Below, one piece after another: positions 2,108 through 34,516 of a stretch of DNA of 35,086 nucleotides. This stretch comes from Promethearchaeota archaeon (GTDB lineage: Archaea > Asgardarchaeota > Lokiarchaeia > Sigyniarchaeales > SOKP01), in the NCBI GenBank assembly GCA_048938025.1, contig JBHLMP010000041.1, positions 1 through 35,086 on the forward strand, written 5' to 3'. Position 1 is the stretch's first letter; each line of letters starts with the position of its first letter. The notes beneath the pieces were generated by a model. That model did no database searches. It was not told where the DNA came from and saw only the letters and a program-made list of their open reading frames with translations. The position numbers and the translations under genes are program-made.

Positions 2108-3370
2108 TTATTCTTCTAAAAATGGAGACAGAGTTTTATATTTAAGATTTAAAATTATTAAAGTAATAGCTAAAAAACCTGTTAGAATTGACCATCTTAG
2201 ATACACTAAAATAACTAAGGGAAATTCATTAAATAATGGAAATGCTCTTAAGAAGAATTGGGTATCTTTTGATGTAAAAATCATTCCTATAATACTAAAT
2301 ATACTTATCATTATTATATAATTTTCTTTAACAAATTGCTTTATTGATTTCTCTTGTTTTACGAAAGGAATTAATAAAAATAAAATAAATGGTAATAAAA
2401 TCTGTAACATACCATAACCTCTAAAGATATCAAGATAAAGAAATGAAAAACAAAAAAGCGAGAACTTCCATTCAATTAAAATCTTTTTGTTAATAATTAA
2501 ACCCAACATTATCATGAATATCATAAATAACATTACATATCTTATAATAATCAAGATAGATTGATTAGAAAATTGAAAATCTGAAAGAAACAATACTCTA
2601 ATCGAGTTTTCATCTAAATTAAATGTGAATCCCTTTAAAAAATCAAATATTAATTCTGGATATATAAGAAAAAGCAAATTTTCAATCAAAAATATGGATA
2701 TAACTATTAAATATTTAAGAATATTATCCCTATTAAATAAATTAGAAATTTTAATTTCATGAAATAAATAAATAATGAAGAGAAAGATTAATTGAGGAAC
2801 CATGCCTATAGCAAAAATAAAAAGTATATAATTTAGTGTGAAAAATGAAATTGTTCTCTCCTTTTCTTCTTTTCTATAATATATTTCTCTCCAAATTATC
2901 CATAGAAATATTACGCTCACAAGGAGTTTAATTTGAAGAGTTCTATATTGATCAAAAATGATCCATCCATTAGAAACTATTAAAAGAAATAATAATCTAT
3001 TCCATTTGTTTTTTAAATTCATCAATCTCATTATTCGGTTGAATAATAAAATAAAAATAATAGAAAGAATATAATTTGTAATCAAAAAAATACAAGCGGC
3101 TAATTTAAGATTAAAAAAACCTAAAAATGAGAAAAAACATGCAAAGCTTGGTAAATAATAATAACCCCAACCAGAAATGTCAATATCATAAAGTTCTTTA
3201 GGATTACTTAGAACCTTCTTAAAAGCTTCATGAAATATGTGAAAATCTACATGATATACATTAAAATCATACCACACTAAAAATAATAATAACCAAAAGG
3301 TTAAACATGAAAATGATATAATAAGATGAAATCTATTTCTAAAAAATTTTAATAACCTTTCAAAACTCAT
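2108..3370 (-). CDS. Polytopic membrane glycosyltransferase, GT-C fold (GT87/DUF2029-like)
   Basis: About 10 hydrophobic segments; N-terminal loop 'VDFHIFHEA...LY...YYYLPSF' and 'LQIKLL' resemble GT87 mannosyltransferase motifs. Confidence 0.65.
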   Translation of the reverse strand: MSFERLLKFFRNRFHLIISFSCLTFWLLLFLVWYDFNVYHVDFHIFHEAFKKVLSNPKELYDIDISGWGYYYLPSFACFFSFLGFFNLKLAACIFLITNYILSIIFILLFNRIMRLMNLKNKWNRLLFLLIVSNGWIIFDQYRTLQIKLLVSVIFLWIIWREIYYRKEEKERTISFFTLNYILFIFAIGMVPQLIFLFIIYLFHEIKISNLFNRDNILKYLIVISIFLIENLLFLIYPELIFDFLKGFTFNLDENSIRVLFLSDFQFSNQSILIIIRYVMLFMIFMIMLGLIINKKILIEWKFSLFCFSFLYLDIFRGYGMLQILLPFILFLLIPFVKQEKSIKQFVKENYIIMISIFSIIGMIFTSKDTQFFLRAFPLFNEFPLVILVYLRWSILTGFLAITLIILNLKYKTLSPFLEE

Positions 3371-3735
3371 AATTATTTACTATTCTAAAGAAATTTTGTA
3401 ATTAACGGCTGGCATACCAAGTTTTAATTTGAGGTCCAAAAATAATTAATAGTAAAAATAGTATAAAAATTAATAAGGTAATTAAGCATTCAATATTAAA
3501 TTTAAAAGTCACTTAATGAATGTTCAGAAAATTATAAAGCAGATTTTATATTTTGATAATAATCTATTTTTATAATATTCTTACTTCTAAAAATTTTAAA
3601 ATTTTTCCAAAAAAGACGATTAATAAAACTAAATTGTTTTAACAAAAAAATTAAGTAATTTTTCCTTTAATTGGGAACAGTTATTCCTCAATCCTTTTTA
3701 TAATAATTTAATTCTTTTAAGTTAGACTAAATTAG

Positions 3736-4419
3736 GTGTTTAAAAAAATGAAAAAATTAAACAAAATTTTACTAGGAGCCTTTGTTTTTATGGCACTAAT
3801 TTCCATAATTAACATAAGTAATGTAGTAGCAACAAATCCTTTAGATATTCCTACAGATGAATATAGTGGTACTCTAGATCCAGGTGAAAATGCAATACGA
3901 TTTCGTAATCAAACACAGATACGTATAGATTGTAATCAATGTATTTGTATAAACATAGAATGTGAAGCTTTGAAGATTGGAGCAAAAGATTTTATATTAG
4001 AGCTTAATACTTCTGGTGATTGTCTAATGAATATGACTTGTACAGAAGAGCAAGCTGAGCTTGGTTTATTAAATGGTAATAGTATTCAAACAAGAACCCG
4101 CAATAGATATACTTATAGAGAAGGATTCTGTATTTCAATAGAATGTAATTGTTCAGAAATTCAAGCAAGATTACGCATTAAAGCATCAATCCATAATAGA
4201 AATGGTGTTTGGGCATATTATCAAGGTGACAAATGGGTTCCTGTTCCTACAACAATTGAAGATGACTATTTAACTGCAGAAGTTGATCATTTTTCCTCCT
4301 GGACTGTTTTAATCCCAACAGCAGGAGAAAATTTAGTGTTTTATGTTGGTATTGCTGCTATAATAGGAGTAATTGCTGTAGGCTCAGTTGCTTTTCTTAG
4401 AAAAAGAGTAAAACAATGA
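3736..4419 (+). CDS. Cys-rich secreted, C-terminally membrane-anchored surface protein
   Basis: Signal peptide (MKKLNKILLGAFVFMALIS; ATG at 3748 is a likely start), Cys-rich beta-type ectodomain, 'W..VPT...LTAEVDHFSSWTVL' motif seen in archaeal surface proteins, C-terminal TM helix followed by a basic tail RKRVKQ. Confidence 0.8.
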   Translation: MFKKMKKLNKILLGAFVFMALISIINISNVVATNPLDIPTDEYSGTLDPGENAIRFRNQTQIRIDCNQCICINIECEALKIGAKDFILELNTSGDCLMNMTCTEEQAELGLLNGNSIQTRTRNRYTYREGFCISIECNCSEIQARLRIKASIHNRNGVWAYYQGDKWVPVPTTIEDDYLTAEVDHFSSWTVLIPTAGENLVFYVGIAAIIGVIAVGSVAFLRKRVKQ

Positions 4420-4498
4420 GCATCCAATTTTTTAAACTAAAAATTTTTTTTATTTTTATTAATTAAATTAAAAAAAGAATGCTAAAAATTGAACTTAT

Positions 4499-5749
4499 TT
4501 GATTTTTAATAGAAGAATTACGAAGAAAAATCATCGGTTAAAAATTTTACTCATATTTATTCTTATTCTTGAATTTAATTTTGTTTTTTATTTTGTGTTA
4601 GCTAGAGATGAAGATATTCCAGATTTTTGGACAGAAGATACAGTCAACCCTGGAGAACATGTTTCTTATTATTTTCCTAATAATATTATATTTGAAATTT
4701 CGACAGATTCTTTAATAGATCTTTATCTAGAATATGATAGCAAAATAAAAAACCGTCAATCTTATTTTATGTTTAACAACAATGAGTCAATATCTCTAAA
4801 TATAACGTCAAAAACAAGCATGAAAAATTATGGTATACCAAATCCTCCCCCAAATCCAAAAAAAGGAAATTTTCAGTTGAGATACCAATACAATTGTATT
4901 TTTAGAATAAGAACCAATACTTCAATAGAAAACTTAACTATCATGTATCGAAAAAATAGTTTATATGGACTAAAACCTAGTATAAATTACTCTTTAGCGA
5001 TATATGAACCAAATCAACAATCATGGGAATTAATTGACACAGAAGAGAAGCTCAATGAATCAATTTCTGAACTATATTTAGAGGGTACGCTTTTAGGTAT
5101 TGAAGGAGATATTGATTATTTTGTAACACTTTTTGAGTTTACTGTAGAACCTTATGATTGGACGTGGTTGATAATAACAATACTAATTACTGCTGTTAGT
5201 ATTTTATCAATAGCATTATTAATATCAAAAAAAGATTATTTTCAGTATCTAAGAACAAGAACTATTCCAATTGAGAAAGGGGCTCATAGATTATCTTTAG
5301 ATGAGGTTCTGGAAAACAGAAATCGAAGCAAAATTATTGAACTAATTTTAATCGAGCCTGGAATTCATTTTAATGAATTATTACGAAAGACAGGCCTTGC
5401 TGCTGGAAACTTGGTTTGGCACCTTGATATTCTTCAGACTTACAAAATAATTGGAAAAAAGAGAGTAGGTAACTTTATTGCTTATTTTCCTTATTATCAA
5501 AAAAATCCTATTTCTAATGTCGATTTAAAATTACAGAAAAGTAAATTAACTTTAGAAATACTAGAAATGATTGAGCAAGATCCAGGAATATGGAATAATT
5601 TAATTACTAAAAAACTAAAGGTTGATCATAAAACAATACAATACCATATTAGGAAATTAGAAGAATTAGGCTTGATAAACTTTAAAAAAGAAGGAAGGAA
5701 GAAAAAAATCTTTCCCAACCTAGAGTCAGACTATTTTAATAATAACTAG
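4499..5749 (+). CDS. Single-pass transmembrane transcriptional regulator: signal/TM, ectodomain, TM, tandem winged-HTH (COG3398-like)
   Basis: Cytoplasmic part has two wHTH units: 'NRSKIIELILIEPGIHFNELLRKTGLAAGNLVWHLDIL' and 'ILEMIEQDPGIWNNLITKKLKVDHKTIQYHIRKLEELGLI'; TM 'WTWLIITILITAVSILSIALLIS'. Confidence 0.85.
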   Translation: MIFNRRITKKNHRLKILLIFILILEFNFVFYFVLARDEDIPDFWTEDTVNPGEHVSYYFPNNIIFEISTDSLIDLYLEYDSKIKNRQSYFMFNNNESISLNITSKTSMKNYGIPNPPPNPKKGNFQLRYQYNCIFRIRTNTSIENLTIMYRKNSLYGLKPSINYSLAIYEPNQQSWELIDTEEKLNESISELYLEGTLLGIEGDIDYFVTLFEFTVEPYDWTWLIITILITAVSILSIALLISKKDYFQYLRTRTIPIEKGAHRLSLDEVLENRNRSKIIELILIEPGIHFNELLRKTGLAAGNLVWHLDILQTYKIIGKKRVGNFIAYFPYYQKNPISNVDLKLQKSKLTLEILEMIEQDPGIWNNLITKKLKVDHKTIQYHIRKLEELGLINFKKEGRKKKIFPNLESDYFNNN

Positions 5750-5800: not shown

Positions 5801-7204
5801 TTAAAAACTATTTAACCAAGAATTAATTTGAGGTGCAAAAATAATTAATAATACTAAAAGAGCTAAAAAAATAATACAAGATAGACTTTTGAATATTTTA
5901 TGTCTTCCTAATTCAATGTTAGTTGATCTTTGCTTGAATTCTTTTACTTTAGCACGATAAAACCCGTATAATCCTTTTCTTGTTAAGATGAGCTTTTCAT
6001 CTAAAACCTCAATATATCCTCCCTCTATTAATTTATTCAAATATTTATCAGCAATTTCAGGACCTAAATCATCATAAAAGAAATCAGCAAATCCTTCATA
6101 GTACATACGTCCTAAACTAAGACCTTTAGAAAAATTTTCAATAACCTTTTTTCGTGAAAGGCTTTCACGTCTAATACTACCTAGAATATATCCAGTTAAT
6201 CGATTTTCATATATATTATCCGCATAAACTTTTATAGAAGTAATATCAAAATCCTCTTCTCTCTTTAAAATTTCACAGATAATCTCAATTCCCTCTTTAA
6301 ACACCAAAGCTGCAATAAGTATTCCAACAAGAGCATCGATAAAGTATATTTTAAAAATGGCAAAAGTTAAACCGATTAAAACTCCAAGAGAAAGTTTTAT
6401 ATTAAATTCAGAATCTTTGGAATCACTTAAAAGAGCCAAATTTCCTGAATTTCTCCCGACCATCCCTTTAAGATACATTAAACCGGCATTCATGGCAATT
6501 GATATAAATCCAATCATATAGGCTTGGACATTTGGGATGATAATCTCCTGTGTAAACAAACTCTCAATACCAGTCCAAACCAATGTTGCTCCCGTAAACA
6601 TCATCATAATGATTATAAGGATACTCGCAAGTCTATCTTTTTTAAATTTTAATCCAACCAATCCAATGATTGCAATTTTTATTAAATCGGTTAAATTTTC
6701 AAAACCTTCAGTCAACATACCCTGGGAACCTAATTGCAAACCAGTTAAGATTTTTAGAATTGAGAGAATGATTAAAAAAAATGCAGAAGCAAGCATTACT
6801 GACGTCACAGAGAAAAATTTTCTCATCCAATATGTTGTATGTAAGTTCCAGTGATAACTTGTTTCTACCAATTTAATACCAGTTTTTGTAAGTCTAATGG
6901 TTTGATTCTGAGTTATTTCAATTAATTGTTTTTGTTTAGCCTTTTGAATATACTCGTCTACATCATTATCTTCAATAATGACTTGTTTTGTTGCCGATAT
7001 AAAAAAAACCTTCATTTCAGATTTTAAATTATCAATATTAGTAGTGCCATCATATATCAAGCATAAAAAGCCATATAGAAGATCTTCATGGGGTTCTTTA
7101 TGATGACCATCATAATATTTTGATATGAATTTAGCTCCTTCGCTTCTTGGACCAAATTTTAATTCTTTTCGTGAATATTTAGATTTTAAATCTGTTAAAG
7201 GCAT
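5801..7204 (-). CDS. Cation diffusion facilitator-like transporter with atypical N- and C-terminal extensions
   Basis: Six-TM core with CDF-like 'KILTGLQLGSQGMLTEGFENLTD', 'SGNLALLSDSKDS' and 'IDALVGILIA' segments. Confidence 0.7.
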   Translation of the reverse strand: MPLTDLKSKYSRKELKFGPRSEGAKFISKYYDGHHKEPHEDLLYGFLCLIYDGTTNIDNLKSEMKVFFISATKQVIIEDNDVDEYIQKAKQKQLIEITQNQTIRLTKTGIKLVETSYHWNLHTTYWMRKFFSVTSVMLASAFFLIILSILKILTGLQLGSQGMLTEGFENLTDLIKIAIIGLVGLKFKKDRLASILIIIMMMFTGATLVWTGIESLFTQEIIIPNVQAYMIGFISIAMNAGLMYLKGMVGRNSGNLALLSDSKDSEFNIKLSLGVLIGLTFAIFKIYFIDALVGILIAALVFKEGIEIICEILKREEDFDITSIKVYADNIYENRLTGYILGSIRRESLSRKKVIENFSKGLSLGRMYYEGFADFFYDDLGPEIADKYLNKLIEGGYIEVLDEKLILTRKGLYGFYRAKVKEFKQRSTNIELGRHKIFKSLSCIIFLALLVLLIIFAPQINSWLNSF

Positions 7205-11612: not shown

Positions 11613-12602
11613 ATGAATGAAAAGAATAAAGAAGAATACTTAATTGAAAAAATTATACCATTTAATGTGAAGAAAATAAAAAATGTCGAGGATTTATTAA
11701 ACTCATTAAAAAAATGTGGATTTCAAGGGAGAAATTTAGGAAAAGCTCTTGATCTTCTTTATAAGATGGTCTCAGATGATAAGATTTTAACAGTTTTAGC
11801 ACTTTCGGGAGCTATGGTCCCTGCTGGTATGGGAGATTTAATATGTGTTTTAATTGAAAATAGACTTATTGATGTTTTAATTACTACAGGAGCAAATACT
11901 ATTCATGATTTAGTAGATGTTGCAACTGATGTAGGACATTATATTGGAAGCTATAATGTGGATGATGACGAGTTATTTAAAGCCCGAATTAATCGAATTT
12001 ACGATACTTTTCTTCCAGAAAATAACTATAAACAAGCAGAAGAGATTTTATTAAAAATAATACATGAAATTTTTGAAGAAAAGGAAATTTATATCACTCC
12101 ATCTGATCTCATGAAAAAAGTTGGTGAGAAAATCGAAAAAAGGTGCATACTTTCCCAAGCAGCAAAATATAATATTCCTATTTTTGTACCAGCTTTCTCT
12201 GACTCTGAATTTGCATTAGATTTAATAAAATATTCAGTAAGAGAAGGTTATAAATTCAATTTTGATATTTTTGGTGATGTACTTAAATTTGCTGATATCA
12301 TAAAGAGTTCAAAAGAATACGGCACCTTTATTATTGGAGGAGGTGTTCCAAGAAATTGGGCTCAACAAGTCTTTCCTTTACTTGATCAAATCAATGAGAT
12401 TAATACAATGGGATATAATTATTCTGTTAGGATACATACAGCAACAGAATATGATGGAGGTCTTTCCGGTTGCACAGTATCTGAATCAAAATCATGGGGT
12501 AAATATTCACTTGAATCTAGATACGTTAGTGTATGGTGTGATGCAACTATTGCATTACCTATTTTGATTACTGGTTTATTACAACGTTTAAAGATTATAT
12601 AA
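11613..12602 (+). CDS. Deoxyhypusine synthase family protein (copy 1)
   Basis: 'GFQGRNLG', 'SGAMVPAGM', 'TTGANTIHD', 'RINRIYD', 'GGGVPRNW', 'DGGLSG...ESKSWGK' (catalytic Lys), 'DATIALP'. Confidence 0.92.
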   Translation: MNEKNKEEYLIEKIIPFNVKKIKNVEDLLNSLKKCGFQGRNLGKALDLLYKMVSDDKILTVLALSGAMVPAGMGDLICVLIENRLIDVLITTGANTIHDLVDVATDVGHYIGSYNVDDDELFKARINRIYDTFLPENNYKQAEEILLKIIHEIFEEKEIYITPSDLMKKVGEKIEKRCILSQAAKYNIPIFVPAFSDSEFALDLIKYSVREGYKFNFDIFGDVLKFADIIKSSKEYGTFIIGGGVPRNWAQQVFPLLDQINEINTMGYNYSVRIHTATEYDGGLSGCTVSESKSWGKYSLESRYVSVWCDATIALPILITGLLQRLKII

Positions 12603-12641: not shown

Positions 12642-13643
12642 ATGAAACATCATAACAAAAAAGACTATTTAATAAAAAAAATCATTCCTTATGATGTCAA
12701 AAAGATAAACAATCTTGATGATTTATTAACTGCTTTGAAATATTGTGGCTTCCAAGGAAGAAATTTAGGTAAAGCACTTGATATTCTTTATAAAATGGTA
12801 ACTGATAAAGAATGTCTTACTATATTAACTCTTTCAGGCGCTATGGTACCAGCTGGGATGGGAAATCTAATATGCTGTTTAATTGAATATGAGTTAATTG
12901 ATGTATTAGTGTCAACAGGAGCTAATATTACTCATGATTTCATCGATGCGGTTTTAAATGGGGGACATTATAGTGGAGGTCATCAAGTTGATGATAACGA
13001 GTTATTTAAACAAAGAATTAATCGAATTTATGATGTTTTTCTCCCAGAAGATAATTATGATAAAGCTGAAAAGGAATTATTAAAAATATTAAATAAGGTG
13101 TTTCCTACTAAAGATTTTGAAATATTACCATCAGAATTTTTTAGAATTATAGGAAAGGAAATCAAAAATAAATGTATATTATCAACAGCAGCAAAAAAAA
13201 AAATTCCTATATTTGTTCCTGCTATTTCTGATTCTGAATTTGCGTTAGATTTAATTAAATTTACGGTGACAGAAGGTTATGACATTGATTTCCGTGTTTT
13301 AAGAGATGTAAAAAAATTTGCTAATATAATTAGGACCGCAACATCATGTGGTACAATTATCATTGGTGGAGGAGTTCCAAGAAATTGGGCGCAACAAATT
13401 TATCCTTACATTGAAAATATTGAACGATTAACAAGAAAAGACTATGAATTTGGATACAAATATTCTGTTAGGATTCATACTGCAACAGAATATGATGGAG
13501 GATTATCTGGTTGTACAATTTCAGAATCAAAATCTTGGGGTAAATATTCTTCAGATTCGAAATATGTAAGTGTGTGGTGTGATGCAACAATAGCCTTGCC
13601 TATTCTTATAACAGGATTATTACAACGATTAAAGATCATTTAA
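12642..13643 (+). CDS. Deoxyhypusine synthase family protein (copy 2, tandem paralogue)
   Basis: Same motifs as copy 1, including SWGK; identical C-terminus 'YVSVWCDATIALPILITGLLQRLKII'. Confidence 0.92.
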   Translation: MKHHNKKDYLIKKIIPYDVKKINNLDDLLTALKYCGFQGRNLGKALDILYKMVTDKECLTILTLSGAMVPAGMGNLICCLIEYELIDVLVSTGANITHDFIDAVLNGGHYSGGHQVDDNELFKQRINRIYDVFLPEDNYDKAEKELLKILNKVFPTKDFEILPSEFFRIIGKEIKNKCILSTAAKKKIPIFVPAISDSEFALDLIKFTVTEGYDIDFRVLRDVKKFANIIRTATSCGTIIIGGGVPRNWAQQIYPYIENIERLTRKDYEFGYKYSVRIHTATEYDGGLSGCTISESKSWGKYSSDSKYVSVWCDATIALPILITGLLQRLKII

Positions 13644-18919: not shown

Positions 18920-20128
18920 ATGAATTCTGTTGAATTGTTTATAGGGATATTAAGTGTTTTTATTGGGTATCTTTTAGGTGCAATTAATCCTGGTTACTTT
19001 TTTGGGAGACTGAAAGGTATTGATATACGAGAAGAGGGAACTGGAAATGCTGGCACCTCAAATGTCCGCATTGTTTTAGGTGTTAAATATGCTGCTTTTA
19101 CGGCATTTTATGATACCTTTAAAGGTATAATTGCCATTTTTATAGCAATTGCAATCGGAGCTAATTTTGTTTTTGCTCAAATAAGTGGATATGCGGCGAT
19201 TATTGGACATATTTTTCCTTTTTATATGCAGTTTCGTGGAGGTCAGGGAATAGCTACTGCTTCAGGAATCATGCTCCTTTATTTATTTACACAATATTTA
19301 GTTAATATTGAATTTTTTTATATCATTTGTTATTTATGCGCTATATATCTCATCTTTTATTCAGCATCTAAAGTTAAAAAATCTATGCCAATGATTTTTA
19401 CATTGCCTGTCTATGGATTTGCTATATATTTACATTACCCTGATAATCCCTATAATATCTTTTGTTGGATAATTCTTGCTTTTCTTTTTTCATTTGGCGT
19501 TTACAGTGTTATTGCTTTAAAAATGTTTAAAATTGAAGATGAAAGTTTTAAATCTCATTGGTGGCGAGTCGCAATAAGACCGGTTGCTCTTCTGTTTTTG
19601 CTATTTTATTTTGCTTTTTCTGAGATTGTGGCTCTGTTCTTAATAGGTATTGTAAGCTTGTGTTTTATCGCTCTTGATATATCCAGATTTCTCTCAACGC
19701 AAGCCCAAGAATTATTAACGGTTAAAATCAAATCAATTTTTAAAAAAGGTGAAGAAAGTAAATTTTCATCAATGACAATTTTCCTAATCTCTACTTTTAT
19801 AAGTATATTATTATTCGATATTGAGATCGCAATAACTGCCTTAATTTTCCTTATATTTGGAGATATTTTTAGTAAAATATTTGGACTAGCTTTTGGTCGT
19901 CATAAGTTATTTGATAAATCAATCGAAGGGACTCTTGCCTATATTGGCACTGTATTTATTTGTGGATATTTTATTTATAACATAATGGATATACCATTAC
20001 TAATTCTAATAACAGGGGGAATTGCAGCAACTTTTTCTGAATTTCTTCCGTTGGGAATGAATGATAATTTTACAGTTCCTATTATTAGTGGATCTGTAAT
20101 GTCAGCATTAATCTTATTTGGTACTTAA
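18920..20128 (+). CDS. PlsY-like glycerol-3-phosphate acyltransferase domain fused to a SEC59/DGK1/VTE5-type CTP-dependent kinase (cytidylyltransferase-family) domain
   Basis: N-half: 'GYLLGAINPG', 'DIREEGTGNAGTSN', 'DTFKG', 'GHIFP..QFRGGQGIAT'. C-half: 'GDIFSKIFG..FGRHK..KSIEGT', 'DNFTVP'. Confidence 0.85.
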   Translation: MNSVELFIGILSVFIGYLLGAINPGYFFGRLKGIDIREEGTGNAGTSNVRIVLGVKYAAFTAFYDTFKGIIAIFIAIAIGANFVFAQISGYAAIIGHIFPFYMQFRGGQGIATASGIMLLYLFTQYLVNIEFFYIICYLCAIYLIFYSASKVKKSMPMIFTLPVYGFAIYLHYPDNPYNIFCWIILAFLFSFGVYSVIALKMFKIEDESFKSHWWRVAIRPVALLFLLFYFAFSEIVALFLIGIVSLCFIALDISRFLSTQAQELLTVKIKSIFKKGEESKFSSMTIFLISTFISILLFDIEIAITALIFLIFGDIFSKIFGLAFGRHKLFDKSIEGTLAYIGTVFICGYFIYNIMDIPLLILITGGIAATFSEFLPLGMNDNFTVPIISGSVMSALILFGT

Positions 20129-33643: not shown

Positions 33644-34516
33644 TTAACTTGGAGAGAGTACTCCTGCAAAAACAAACCAAGCAAGGAATGTTTTAGCAAA
33701 TAAACTTAATAACTGATACACCCGTTCTCCGTAGAGATAGTCTTTCCATTTTCCTACACCTTTATATTGAAGTACCATGTTAATAGCAAATGTATTGAAG
33801 AAAAATAGTTCAATTCCATAAATCCAATAGACAAACCAAGGAATTTCTCCTCCAATGGTCTGTGTACTAAGGAAATAACTTGTTATAACGATCCAAGGTA
33901 CAGCGCCAATAATACATCCAAGGATAAATGGGGTCCATTTTACTTTCTCATTTTTTTCACGAGTATAAACGTTATATAGTTCCATCATTAAACCGAACAT
34001 ATTCATTATCGCATTTGCCATGAAAATCATAAATAAAGACCAGAAATCCCAAACTCCAAAGAAAATAGCAATTAAGACAATCATAACCGAACTAGAAAAT
34101 GCATATTCAAACCACCGTACTTTATTGATTCCACGTTTTAGATTTCGAACATAGCTCTTATTAAGTGGATAAGCGATTAATAAATGGGCTATAGCAGACA
34201 TCAATAAAAATGACCCTACAAACACACCTAAGATTCTAAATGTAAAGAAAATTTGAGCATTAGGTTCAATAAGAAAAGTATCTGGTGCAATCTCTTCAAA
34301 TCTAAGATAAAAAGTGTAGATGGGTCTAGCAAAATCTAAGAGAAATCCAAGAAAAATCATCAATAACCCTTGTATTAGATGTAAAATCCCCATGTTTCGG
34401 TTGAATTTTGTTAGGTATTCAAATGTAATGGGTGACTCAGGTATTAACCAATCATCACGAGAATTATTTGCTTTCATAATTAAAAATAGCTTTAATTTGG
34501 ATTTAAACAAAATCAC
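33644..34516 (-). CDS. heR: Heliorhodopsin
   Basis: 'N..MGILHLIQG', 'SAIAH', 'NKVRWFEYAFSSSVM', 'N..MNMFG..ME', 'W..Y..GE..Y..LSLFAKTFLAW' (retinal-binding Lys). True start may be ATG at 34477. Confidence 0.95.
   Translation of the reverse strand: MILFKSKLKLFLIMKANNSRDDWLIPESPITFEYLTKFNRNMGILHLIQGLLMIFLGFLLDFARPIYTFYLRFEEIAPDTFLIEPNAQIFFTFRILGVFVGSFLLMSAIAHLLIAYPLNKSYVRNLKRGINKVRWFEYAFSSSVMIVLIAIFFGVWDFWSLFMIFMANAIMNMFGLMMELYNVYTREKNEKVKWTPFILGCIIGAVPWIVITSYFLSTQTIGGEIPWFVYWIYGIELFFFNTFAINMVLQYKGVGKWKDYLYGERVYQLLSLFAKTFLAWFVFAGVLSPS

What the first reader, a model, noticed from the sequence alone, without database searches (positions are those of the whole stretch)
3736..5749. Candidate surface signalling pair: an anchored surface protein and a transmembrane wHTH transcription factor with homologous ectodomains
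Seen in sequence: the two ectodomains align by eye. Gene A: DIPTDEYSGTLDPGE-NAIRFRNQTQIRIDCNQCICINIECEALKIGAKDFILELNTSGDCLMNMT...ELG...YREGFCISIECNCS...AYY..DKWVPVPT. Gene B: DIPDFWTEDTVNPGEHVSYYFPNNIIFEISTDSLIDLYLEYDS-KIKNRQSYFMFNNNESISLNIT...NYG...YQYNCIFRIRTNTS...AIY...QSWELIDT. Shared pattern: DIP..T(L/V)(D/N)PGE, F.N, KI, N(M/I)T, Y, N.S, A.Y, W...T. A has about nine Cys and only a short basic cytoplasmic tail; B has one Cys in the ectodomain and a cytoplasmic tandem wHTH. Inference: a duplicated ectodomain lets A act as co-receptor, decoy or ligand for B (ToxR/ToxS-like logic, or receptor-to-DNA signalling by dimerisation or regulated proteolysis), with B possibly controlling A. I do not know of this arrangement being described.
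Basis: partly seen in the sequence, partly recalled or inferred. Interest (0 to 1): 0.78.

Follow-up and report, generated by a model that had tools for sequence, protein, structure and literature searches.

The report
Self-cleaving surface protein plus membrane regulator
An Asgard archaeon keeps a small membrane protein, built from a domain of the kind that cuts its own chain in animal adhesion receptors, next to a membrane-bound gene regulator whose outer part is an uncuttable copy of that domain; the pair may carry a surface signal to gene control.

Summary
Gene A (3748-4419) and gene B (4499-5749) have homologous ectodomains: hhalign probability 96.9%, E 1.8e-10, against reversed or shuffled controls at E >= 0.13. 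The order A then B holds in 67 of 67 Asgard genomes that have a near-full A.

A consists only of a signal peptide, one beta-sandwich, a TM helix and a short tail. The sandwich carries an invariant His-Phe-Ser (52 of 52) in the turn before its last strand. Its best solved-structure matches are adhesion-GPCR GAIN domains (Z 7.2, 7.1, 6.6), which is suggestive rather than decisive. This fits the recently described microbial "MAIN" domains.

B's copy reads Tyr-Phe/Tyr-Val/Ile (0 of 104 keep His-x-Ser). It is joined through a TM helix to two cytoplasmic winged helices.

A palindromic box next to the TATA box of A's promoter is conserved in 21 of 21 loci and occurs once in this genome.

Two rare single-chain proteins join an intact HFS domain to B's DNA-binding part.

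Self-cleavage, A-B contact and B binding the box are all inferred. Earlier agents of this scan reported the same pair on other genomes. I found no paper describing it.

The parts
3672..3694 (+). Conserved promoter box TGGGAACAGTTATTCCTCAATCC. It contains an imperfect palindrome, GGAA-N6-TTCC, and lies about 76 nt upstream of A's ATG.
   Evidence: The same box sits 73-97 nt from the start of A in 21 of 21 loci from 9 genera of one family, plus one locus of the sister family. The best match to the 31-nt consensus is 19-28, and 18 of 21 loci reach 22 or more, against 1 of 420 shuffles. It occurs once in the window, with 0 of 100 shuffles giving a match. It is unique in the 3.52-Mb genome: 27.3 bits against 17.9 for the next hit.
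3695..3702 (+). TATA-box-like TTTTTATA directly after the box. The TCAATCC just before it lies where a BRE would be.
   Evidence: Read from the sequence. T/A-rich in the same register in the 21 loci. The function is inferred.
3748..4419 (+). Gene A: a 223-aa type-I membrane protein made of a signal peptide, one GAIN/MAIN-type beta-sandwich, a TM helix and the tail RKRVKQ.
   Evidence: It has 105 homologues, none with a Pfam family.
3748..3831 (+). Signal peptide of A (residues 5-32 of the GTG-numbered ORF, ending in VVA).
   Evidence: The alignment shows conserved MKK, a hydrophobic core and a nearly invariant A32. The model has a helix at 5-25. No signal-peptide predictor was run.
3832..4317 (+). 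Ectodomain of A (residues 33-194), an all-beta sandwich.
   Evidence: AF2 model: mean pLDDT 82.3, with the 10-residue blocks over residues 41-190 at 82-94 and those at the ends (31-40, 191-200) at 73-78, and 15 strands. The best solved-structure matches are GAIN domains: CD97 Z 7.2, BAI3 Z 7.1, BAI2 Z 6.6.
4288..4296 (+). His185-Phe186-Ser187, the putative autoproteolysis site (cut expected between F186 and S187).
   Evidence: Invariant in 52 of 52 aligned family members and present in 102 of 106 homologues. In the model it lies in the turn between the last two strands, E178-183 and E188-194. B. subtilis YfkN cuts between F and S of its HFS (read in the preprint).
4333..4398 (+). TM helix of A (residues 200-221).
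   Evidence: Hydrophobic stretch. The model has a helix at 199-226.
4444..4469 (+). A-B spacer: a T8 run after A's stop, then a TATA-like stretch. These are a likely terminator for A and a separate promoter for B.
   Evidence: A run of T, of 7 or more in nearly every locus, follows A's stop in the 21 loci, and most then show an A/T-rich TATA-like stretch before B's start. Read by eye; the function is inferred.
4499..5749 (+). Gene B: a 416-aa membrane-tethered regulator with a TTG start.
   Evidence: It has 103 homologues of about 417 aa.
4538..4603 (+). N-terminal signal or anchor helix of B (residues 14-35, ending in VLA before Arg36).
   Evidence: Sequence and alignment. The model has a helix at 2-34. 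Whether it is cleaved off is not known.
4604..5155 (+). Ectodomain of B (residues 36-219), a diverged non-cleaving copy of A's sandwich.
   Evidence: hhalign against the A family. The model is all-beta with pLDDT about 85-95. Secondary structure is collinear with A.
5117..5125 (+). Tyr207-Phe208-Val209, the positions that pair with A's His-Phe-Ser.
   Evidence: hhalign pairs 185/207, 186/208 and 187/209. In the B family these positions read Y in 54 of 54, Y/F in 54 of 54, and I/V/L/F in 54 of 54. None of 104 homologues has an H-x-S/T motif there.
5159..5224 (+). TM helix of B (residues 221-242).
   Evidence: model helix 222-253.
5225..5716 (+). Cytoplasmic part of B: a conserved juxtamembrane stretch (243-273), wHTH1 (274-331) and wHTH2 (349-406).
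   Evidence: Pfam PF24266 and PF13412. Structural matches to MarR/ArsR/MecI-type wHTH at Z about 10. Mean pairwise identity is 84%, against 53% for the ectodomain.

Best explanation
A and B form a two-gene module that links the cell surface to gene control.

Shown:
- A is a membrane-anchored protein made of a single GAIN/MAIN-type beta-sandwich, with an invariant His-Phe-Ser before its last strand.
- B is a membrane-tethered tandem-wHTH regulator. Its ectodomain is a diverged copy of that sandwich without the His and the Ser.
- The order A then B is fixed across one Asgard order.
- A's promoter carries a conserved palindromic box abutting BRE/TATA, and that box is unique in this genome.

Inferred:
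- A cuts itself between F186 and S187, and keeps its roughly 150-residue N-terminal fragment bound non-covalently. Bacterial MAIN domains and animal GAIN domains do this.
- Loss of that fragment, through force, a ligand or a protease, changes what B's uncuttable paralogous ectodomain contacts. That could be the intact A domain or its exposed membrane stub.
- B, acting from the membrane, then changes its occupancy of the box and so the synthesis of A. In relatives the same would apply to A-like paralogues and a few exported proteins.

The result would be a closed loop that reports the state or shedding of a surface protein.
For: - Homology of the ectodomains.
- HFS is invariant in A (52 of 52; 102 of 106) and replaced in B (0 of 104).
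- HFS lies in the last beta-turn, 13 residues before the TM helix.
- The top structural matches are GAIN domains (Z 7.2, 7.1, 6.6), followed by FIIND/ZU5 (6.1-5.5), which are also autoproteolytic folds. Generic sandwiches score 5.9 or lower.
- The A profile reaches bacterial SLH-anchored proteins that carry H-F/L-T just before the anchor (E 6.6e-9; hhalign 82%).
- YfkN cuts at HF|S and its products stay associated: preprint.
- A then B, same strand, in 67 of 67 genomes.
- The box is present in 21 of 21 loci and unique in the genome.
- The same box precedes 6 of 6 unlinked A-like paralogues. A variant precedes the small gene upstream of a second B paralogue in 3 of 4 loci. What those loci share is a B-type regulator.
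- Two single-chain proteins join an intact HFS domain through a TM helix to B's tandem wHTH (P0221, P0267). This shows that the domain and this DNA-binding module can be wired directly.
- B's cytoplasmic part is 84% conserved, against 53% for its ectodomain.
Against: - No cleavage, binding or expression data exist.
- The fold matches have Z below 8, a range the tool itself calls common for chance arrangements. ZU5/FIIND lies within about 1 Z of GAIN. Foldseek found nothing at E <= 0.001.
- Nothing shows that B, rather than one of its 7 paralogous matches in this genome or another factor, binds the box.
- B seems to have its own promoter behind a T-run, so the pair is probably not one operon.
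- A has no passenger domain to release, unlike published MAIN proteins, which average 158 kDa.
- The single-chain forms are rare: 2 of 205 profile hits, each seen on only 1-2 contigs. No relatives turned up in two further searches.
- In some A-like paralogues of other genomes the His is lost.
Confidence: 0.5

Rival explanations
1. B is a self-sufficient transmembrane regulator. It would be controlled by a ligand, by dimerisation, or by site-1/site-2 proteolysis that releases the wHTH part. A is only its regulated target. The ectodomains are alike because of common descent and do not touch.
For: Transmembrane transcription regulators are common in archaea, about 4 per genome (passages of PMC10269533). 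The genome has M50 site-2 protease homologues. The box at A's promoter fits 'A is the target' equally well. B appears to have its own promoter.
Against: This does not explain why the target gene is always the paralogue of the sensor domain and always adjacent (67 of 67). It also does not explain why B's copy has lost exactly the catalytic His and Ser while keeping the fold.
Confidence: 0.25
2. A does not cut itself, and HFS is a structural motif. A would act as a ToxS-like stabiliser or co-receptor of B.
For: Adjacency and paralogy. Some A-like paralogues in another genus read (N/S/T)(V/T)LS instead of HFS and are still kept behind the same box. One of 106 A homologues reads EFS.
Against: H, F and S are each invariant in 52 of 52 aligned sequences, although the ectodomain as a whole is only 58% identical. 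The same tripeptide is the proven cleavage site in YfkN. It also sits in the last beta-turn of the model.
Confidence: 0.15
3. The two genes are functionally unlinked products of an old tandem duplication. The box would be bound by another factor, and A would be an ordinary surface or adhesion protein.
For: There is no experimental link. B has 7 other matches in the genome. No RNA data were available.
Against: Order, strand and short spacing are kept across two families that are only 37-56% identical in A, while the flanking genes change. A box variant recurs next to the second B paralogue.
Confidence: 0.1

Closest known systems
MAIN (Microbial Autoproteolysis INducing) domains, e.g. Bacillus subtilis YfkN (Brogan and Rudner, bioRxiv 10.64898/2026.05.12.724683; I read the abstract, Results part 1, section 8 and passages found by term search)
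   Same: Both have a signal peptide, a GAIN_B-like beta-sandwich and an H-x-S motif. The tripeptide is HFS, as in YfkN, and lies in a turn before the last strand, followed by a cell-surface anchor. Archaeal members are mentioned in the paper.
   Different: [quoted passage not shown] A is the domain alone (223 aa) on a TM helix. It is paired with a regulator that carries a dead copy. Rare single-chain forms join the domain to a DNA-binding module.
GAIN domains of adhesion GPCRs (CD97/ADGRE5, BAI3, BAI2) and polycystin-1
   Same: These are the best structural matches of A's model: Z 7.2, 7.1 and 6.6, with 127-130 residues aligned across nearly the whole ectodomain. The H-hydrophobic-S/T site lies a few residues before the membrane. 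The cleaved strand stays tethered to the membrane part.
   Different: A has no GAIN_A helical subdomain and no 7TM domain. The output would be a separate membrane-bound transcription factor, not a G protein. Sequence similarity is not detectable. Z is below 8.
RsgI/SigI with SEAL domains (PMC10556640, abstract and introduction read; PMC10328401, seen in the search listing only)
   Same: This is a prokaryotic route from a constitutively self-cleaved juxtamembrane ectodomain to transcription. The regulated step is dissociation of the fragments, which is then followed by site-2 proteolysis. It is the closest model for the single-chain forms P0221 and P0267.
   Different: It uses a different fold (SEA-like) and an anti-sigma factor rather than a DNA-binding protein. 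It is bacterial. The sensing chain itself is cleaved, whereas B has lost the site.
ToxR-ToxS and CadC-type transmembrane transcription regulators; ArnR/ArnR1 of Sulfolobus (PMC10269533, passages read; PMC6396743 and PMC7496328, search listings only)
   Same: A DNA-binding domain is held at the membrane with an extracytoplasmic sensor. In ToxR/ToxS there is also a small membrane partner encoded next door.
   Different: As I recall it, ToxR has an N-terminal OmpR-type wHTH and type-II topology, and ToxS is not a paralogue of ToxR's sensor. B has a signal peptide, an N-terminal ectodomain and a C-terminal tandem wHTH (PF24266 plus PF13412).
ZU5/FIIND autoproteolytic domains (ankyrin ZU5, NLRP1, CARD8)
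   Same: These are the second group of structural matches (Z 6.1-5.5) and the best Foldseek row (ankyrin ZU5A-ZU5B, E 0.039). As I recall, related proteins such as PIDD cut at an HFS site.
   Different: In FIIND, as I recall it, a whole UPA subdomain follows the cut. In A only one strand and the TM helix follow. FIIND proteins are cytoplasmic and eukaryotic.

Membership tests
MAIN / GAIN_B-type autoproteolytic domain (ectodomain of A) | H-x-S/T motif with a hydrophobic x | tested here: met
   HFS is present in 52 of 52 aligned sequences and 102 of 106 homologues. Three of the misses are truncated fragments and one reads EFS.
MAIN / GAIN_B-type autoproteolytic domain (ectodomain of A) | The motif lies in the turn between the last two strands of the beta-sandwich | tested here: met
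   In the AF2 model (pLDDT 82.3) the strands are E178-183 and E188-194 and the turn is 184-187 (DHFS). This is a predicted structure, not a solved one.
MAIN / GAIN_B-type autoproteolytic domain (ectodomain of A) | GAIN_B-like fold | tested here: inconclusive
   The top matches are GAIN domains: CD97 (Z 7.2, rmsd 4.1, 127 aligned), BAI3 (Z 7.1, rmsd 3.7, 127 aligned) and BAI2 (Z 6.6, 130 aligned). All Z values are below 8. FIIND/ZU5 follows at 6.1-5.5. Foldseek found no match at E <= 0.001.
MAIN / GAIN_B-type autoproteolytic domain (ectodomain of A) | Signal peptide, and a cell-surface anchor C-terminal of the domain | tested here: met
   N-terminal MKK plus a hydrophobic helix, and a C-terminal TM helix at 199-226 with a basic tail. 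These were read from the sequence and the model; no dedicated predictor was used.
MAIN / GAIN_B-type autoproteolytic domain (ectodomain of A) | Large adhesion or enzyme passenger N-terminal of the domain | tested here: not met
   A is 223 aa, and residues 33-194 form one domain. Distant relatives do carry passengers, or tandem copies of the domain.
MAIN / GAIN_B-type autoproteolytic domain (ectodomain of A) | Sequence relationship to bacterial surface proteins that carry the motif just before their wall anchor | tested here: met
   P0314 (1460 aa, HLT at 1270, SLH from 1289) scores E 6.6e-9, and P0358 scores E 2.1e-5. hhalign gives 82%, E 1e-5, over 69 columns. Whether these two proteins are in the preprint's MAIN set could not be checked, because its supplements are closed.
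MAIN / GAIN_B-type autoproteolytic domain (ectodomain of A) | Autoproteolysis, with the fragments staying associated | not testable with these tools
   This needs protein expression and an S187A control.
MAIN / GAIN_B-type domain (ectodomain of B) | Homology to the A-type domain | tested here: met
   hhalign 96.9%, E 1.8e-10, with controls. Secondary structure is collinear.
MAIN / GAIN_B-type domain (ectodomain of B) | H-x-S/T catalytic motif | tested here: not met
   The positions read Y207 in 54 of 54 and I/V/L/F at 209 in 54 of 54. None of 104 homologues has the motif. B is therefore a non-catalytic relative.
ZU5-UPA / FIIND | A UPA subdomain following the cleavage site (definition recalled from memory) | tested here: not met
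   Only one strand (188-194) and the TM helix follow HFS in the model.
Transmembrane transcription regulators (general class) | A DNA-binding domain plus at least one TM segment in one protein | tested here: met
   PF24266 and PF13412 are above their cut-offs. TM helix at 221-242.
ToxR/CadC family | N-terminal cytoplasmic OmpR-type wHTH, type-II topology, C-terminal periplasmic sensor (definition recalled from memory) | tested here: not met
   B has the reverse order: an N-terminal ectodomain and a C-terminal tandem wHTH of ArsR/MarR type.
ArsR/SmtB metalloregulators (NF033788) | Score above NCBIfam's cut-off | tested here: not met
   40.1 bits against a cut-off of 55.

The most novel reading that the evidence does not exclude
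Asgard archaea possess a prototype of adhesion-receptor or Notch-style signalling. A GAIN-type domain that cuts its own chain is wired to transcription through a membrane-tethered factor. The rare single-chain forms (intact HFS domain, TM helix, tandem wHTH) would represent the ancestral direct coupling. The widespread A/B pair would be a split version, in which shedding of A's N-terminal fragment is read by B's uncuttable copy. This would be the first signalling output assigned to a microbial GAIN/MAIN domain, found in the archaeal lineage closest to eukaryotes.
Probability: 0.3. Interest if true: 0.9.

Novelty: new variant of a known kind. Interest (0 to 1): 0.72.

Why it matters
GAIN domains are the defining force-sensing, self-cleaving modules of animal adhesion GPCRs. 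Their microbial counterparts (MAIN) were described only in 2026, as release devices with no known signalling role.

A conserved pairing of a minimal MAIN protein with a transcription factor carrying a dead MAIN copy gives a concrete and testable case of such a domain feeding into gene control. A dedicated promoter box and the single-chain fusions add to the case. The organisms involved are relatives of the eukaryotic ancestor.

The system is small: two genes and one operator. Cleavage, binding and footprinting assays could settle it.

Tried and rejected
The queue was full or the machine gave no answer. There is therefore no result on binding.
As a result B's ectodomain was never searched alone, and the lists for B's model were filled by the wHTH domains.
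- RNA evidence: no RNA holder was listed among 21 runs.
- A sequence search of solved structures with the A profile gave only chance-level rows, with E >= 0.11.
- ESM Atlas: for A, only its own family and generic sandwiches at TM 0.55-0.61. For B's ectodomain the Atlas holds no model, and a ZU5 cluster at 0.78 is below the level that counts.
- Single-chain form P0267: no relative was found in genome contigs, and only the protein itself in the 5.8-billion-protein search.
- A candidate single-chain locus with a 384-aa open frame (G030:C135) proved to be a further B paralogue without HFS.
- The neighbouring cation-efflux gene (5801-7204) as part of the module: it is adjacent to B only in G000 and G210. 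It is elsewhere in G240, G174 and G030 and was not found in G147. Rejected.
- Further box copies in this genome: none above 17.9 bits, and the runners-up are not followed by a TATA-like stretch, judged by eye on the downstream sequence printed there. The pattern with up to 2 mismatches in 5 other genomes matched no more often than its reversed control. Only hits with 0-1 mismatches were followed up.
- Chance or compositional similarity of the ectodomains: rejected by the controls.
Full report
**The genes.** The window holds two co-directional ORFs at the stated place: A at 3736-4419 and B at 4499-5749. In the family alignment all A relatives begin at MKK, which is ATG 3748 here. An AGGTG lies 10 nt upstream of that ATG. 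I therefore take 3748 as A's start. The window is contig C50 of a 3.52-Mb, 88-contig genome that is 96.7% complete and about 21-35% G+C per kb. Public names attached to homologues are all Asgard MAG labels: Promethearchaeota, Lokiarchaeota, Hod-, Thor-, Odin- and Heimdallarchaeota.

**Check of the observation.**
- A has 105 homologues and B has 103.
- hhalign of a 52-sequence A alignment against a 54-sequence B alignment gives probability 96.9%, E 1.8e-10, over 157 columns. These lie wholly within the ectodomains.
- On ectodomain columns alone the score is 40.6 (83.5%, E 8.3e-6). Two reversed and ten column-shuffled controls reach at most 15.7, with E >= 0.13.
- The A profile by itself finds the neighbouring ~420-aa frame in ten genomes, at E 4e-10 to 9e-7.
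- It also finds two B-like representatives at E 8e-8 and 3e-7 in a library of 1.84 billion proteins.
- B's cytoplasmic part matches PF24266 and PF13412 above their cut-offs.

**Conservation of the pair.** I searched 301 genomes of the phylum with each profile.
- The A profile matched 92 at E <= 1e-5. Strong full-length matches were confined to two families of one order: f1 in 60 of 68 genomes and f2 in 7 of 7.
- The B profile at E <= 1e-40 matched f1 in 64 of 68, f2 in 7 of 7, and none of the 225 genomes of the other 28 families.
- From I took the 71 near-full-length A rows. I left out split matches to longer paralogues, fragments, and the weak rows that matched only the C-terminal part.
- Of these 71 rows, 67 have a B-family match downstream on the same strand, 53-748 nt away by match coordinates. 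One such pair occurs in each of the 67 genomes.
- The four rows without a neighbour are second copies.
- Eleven full-length B rows lack an A upstream. Two sit at contig ends with an A fragment beside them. Nine are a second B paralogue.
- Flanking genes are not conserved.

**What the domain is.** Earlier notes of this scan, on other genomes, pointed to a GAIN/"MAIN" reading and to a 2026 preprint. I tested that lead here.
- In the A family, H185, F186, S187, W189 and T190 are invariant in 52 of 52 sequences.
- Of 106 homologues, 102 have HFSxW. Three of the misses are truncated and one reads EFS.
- hhalign pairs these residues with B's Y207, F208 and V209.
- In the B family those positions read Y (54 of 54), Y/F, and I/V/L/F. 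None of 104 homologues has an H-x-S/T motif there.
- The AF2 model of A (mean pLDDT 82.3; 82-94 over most of the ectodomain) is a 15-strand sandwich. DHFS forms the turn between the last two strands and the TM helix begins 12 residues later.
- Foldseek gave nothing at E <= 0.001. Its best row was ankyrin ZU5A-ZU5B at E 0.039.
- VIA-align against 48,161 chains ranked CD97 first (Z 7.2, rmsd 4.1, 127 aligned, model 44-196). Also in the list were CELSR1 GAIN (5.7), CARD8 FIIND (5.6), BAI3 GAIN (5.6) and ankyrin ZU5 (5.5).
- The second look gave CD97 7.2, BAI3 GAIN 7.1, BAI2 GAIN 6.6, NLRP1 FIIND 6.1 and ankyrin ZU5 6.0/5.9. Unrelated beta-sandwiches scored 5.9 or lower.
- These Z values lie in the range the tool warns may be chance. 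The top rows are nevertheless all autoproteolytic sandwich families and cover the whole ectodomain.
- The preprint states three things. MAIN domains use H-x-S/T. YfkN is cut between the F and the S of HFS, with its products staying associated. No signalling has been tied to them.
- The A profile also reaches bacterial proteins with tandem HFT/HLT domains just before SLH or wall-binding domains. hhalign to those domains gives 82%, E 1e-5, over the C-terminal 69 columns.
- Many archaeal hits are tandem HFS domains with PGF-like or TM anchors. Of the 148 listed hits other than the two that were already in the A-family set, 115 carry the motif.

**B.**
- The model (pLDDT 79.5) shows an N-terminal helix and an all-beta ectodomain at pLDDT 85-95. 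These are followed by a TM helix, a low-confidence linker and two wHTH domains.
- The wHTH domains match MarR/ArsR/MecI-type DNA-binding domains at Z about 10.
- The secondary structure of A and B is collinear on the hhalign pairing. Of 153 positions, 116 share the DSSP state and 72 are strand in both, against 35-49 after sliding B by 5-12 residues.
- Mean pairwise identity in the B family is 53% in the ectodomain and 84% in the cytoplasmic part. The juxtamembrane stretch alone is 85%.
- The genome has seven further matches to B's wHTH part. The closest is a 260-aa protein with two TM helices and no ectodomain.

**The promoter box.**
- All 21 loci compared (the window and 20 others, from 9 genera of f1 and one genome of f2) carry TGGG(G)AA-N3-TTATTCCTCAATCC followed by a TATA-like run. 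It lies 73-97 nt before A's start, while the rest of the upstream DNA is not alignable between genera.
- Best matches to the consensus are 19-28 of 31, and 18 of 21 loci reach 22 or more, against 1 of 420 shuffles. The consensus was derived from these same loci, which flatters the comparison.
- In the window the box is at 3672-3694. None of 100 shuffles gives a match.
- In the whole genome a 27-nt matrix scores it at 40.0 bits, with the next hits at 16.4 and 15.7. An 18-nt core scores it at 27.3 against 17.9 for the next hit.
- In f2 the left arm TGGGGA.AAG is kept and the right arm differs. This was read by eye in 4 of 5 loci.
- The same box precedes 6 of 6 unlinked A-like paralogues in other genomes, at 18.8-28.8 bits.
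- A 16.7-bit variant precedes a different small membrane protein that sits upstream of the second B paralogue, in 3 of 4 loci.
- In five other genomes, hits with 0-1 mismatches were the A promoter alone in three of them. In two genomes there were a few extra sites as well. One extra site lies before an exported HExxH protein.
- After A's stop, the 21 loci have a T-run, of 7 or more in nearly all of them, and most then have a TATA-like stretch. B probably has its own promoter.

**Single-chain forms.** Two representatives from the profile search join an A-type ectodomain with intact HFS, through a TM helix, to B's tandem wHTH.
- P0221 (384 aa) has an ectodomain 48-50% identical to A-family members and a cytoplasmic part 78-81% identical to B.
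- P0267 (481 aa) shows 35% and 45% respectively.
- Each is known from only 1-2 contigs, and further searches found no relatives.
- They show that this domain can be wired directly to this DNA-binding module. P0267's ectodomain resembles A far more than B's ectodomain does (35% against about 20%). This suggests that B's copy is the derived, degenerate one.

**Reading.**
- Shown: the paralogy, the motif pattern, the fixed gene order, the box and its uniqueness.
- Inferred from the family: A cuts itself at F186|S187.
- Inferred from association only: B binds the box, and B's ectodomain reads A's state.
- I put the signalling-pair model at 0.5. The rivals and their weights are listed in their own section.
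- The closest working analogy for the single-chain forms is RsgI/SigI, where a self-cleaved ectodomain holds back site-2 proteolysis (abstract of PMC10556640). The genome has M50 homologues.

**Novelty.**
- Searches for HVO_0163 and for membrane-bound transcription, Asgard and winged helix listed no paper on such a pair.
- The same holds for searches on GAIN domain, autoproteolysis, archaea and transcription factor, and on archaeal membrane-anchored regulators.
- The MAIN preprint's main text has no occurrence of DNA-binding, HTH or regulator.
- Nine earlier notes of this scan describe the same pair on other genomes.
- New here are the single-chain forms, the uniqueness of the box in a whole genome, the controls on the homology, and the Cys-repeat paralogues.

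Noticed in passing
L030, L031, L035 (genus g1) and L032-L034 (genus g4); not present in this genome: Unlinked A-like paralogues of 294-317 aa carry a 70-90-residue insertion of (CxC)n / CxCxCxCxxEC repeats. The insertion sits in the loop that reads ECNCSE in the window's A. The g1 copies keep HFS. The g4 copies read (N/S/T)(V/T)LS. All six have the promoter box. The repeats look metallothionein-like, which hints at metal or redox chemistry on the cell surface.
   Followed up: partly
L036, L038, L039 (also L037): A second B paralogue (411-421 aa) is preceded by a 182-196-aa N-terminally anchored, Ser-rich small protein rather than by an A-type gene. That protein has no Pfam family, and a variant box lies about 80 nt upstream of it in 3 of 4 loci.
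   Followed up: partly
L052 (G195:C37), L050 (G174:C3), L053 (G195:C58): Extra box copies in other genomes lie before three genes: an exported HExxH protein of at least 565 aa with a weak InhA-like MAM hit (E 4e-4), a 130-aa protein without a family, and a 115-aa Cys4 protein.
   Followed up: partly
window 5801-7204 (-): A cation-efflux (CDF) protein with long N- and C-terminal extensions and a weak wHTH-like stretch lies convergent with B. Adjacency to B is seen only in G000 and G210.
   Followed up: yes
window 11613-12602 and 12642-13643 (+): Two tandem deoxyhypusine synthase genes, each matching PF01916 at about E 1e-88.
   Followed up: no
window 33644-34516 (-): A heliorhodopsin gene (PF18761, E 2.5e-88) in a sediment Asgard genome.
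   Followed up: no
window 18920-20128 (+): A 402-aa protein with a PlsY-type glycerol-3-phosphate acyltransferase domain, which is a bacterial-type lipid enzyme family, in an archaeon.
   Followed up: no
window 2108-3370 (-): A 420-aa multi-pass membrane protein without any Pfam match lies divergent from A.
   Followed up: no
L003 (G000:C6): The closest paralogue of B's cytoplasmic part (260 aa, two TM helices, no ectodomain) follows two other genes. One encodes a 197-aa membrane protein whose sequence recalled an isoprenylcysteine methyltransferase to me; no family scan was run on it. The other encodes a 172-aa C-terminally anchored protein.
   Followed up: no
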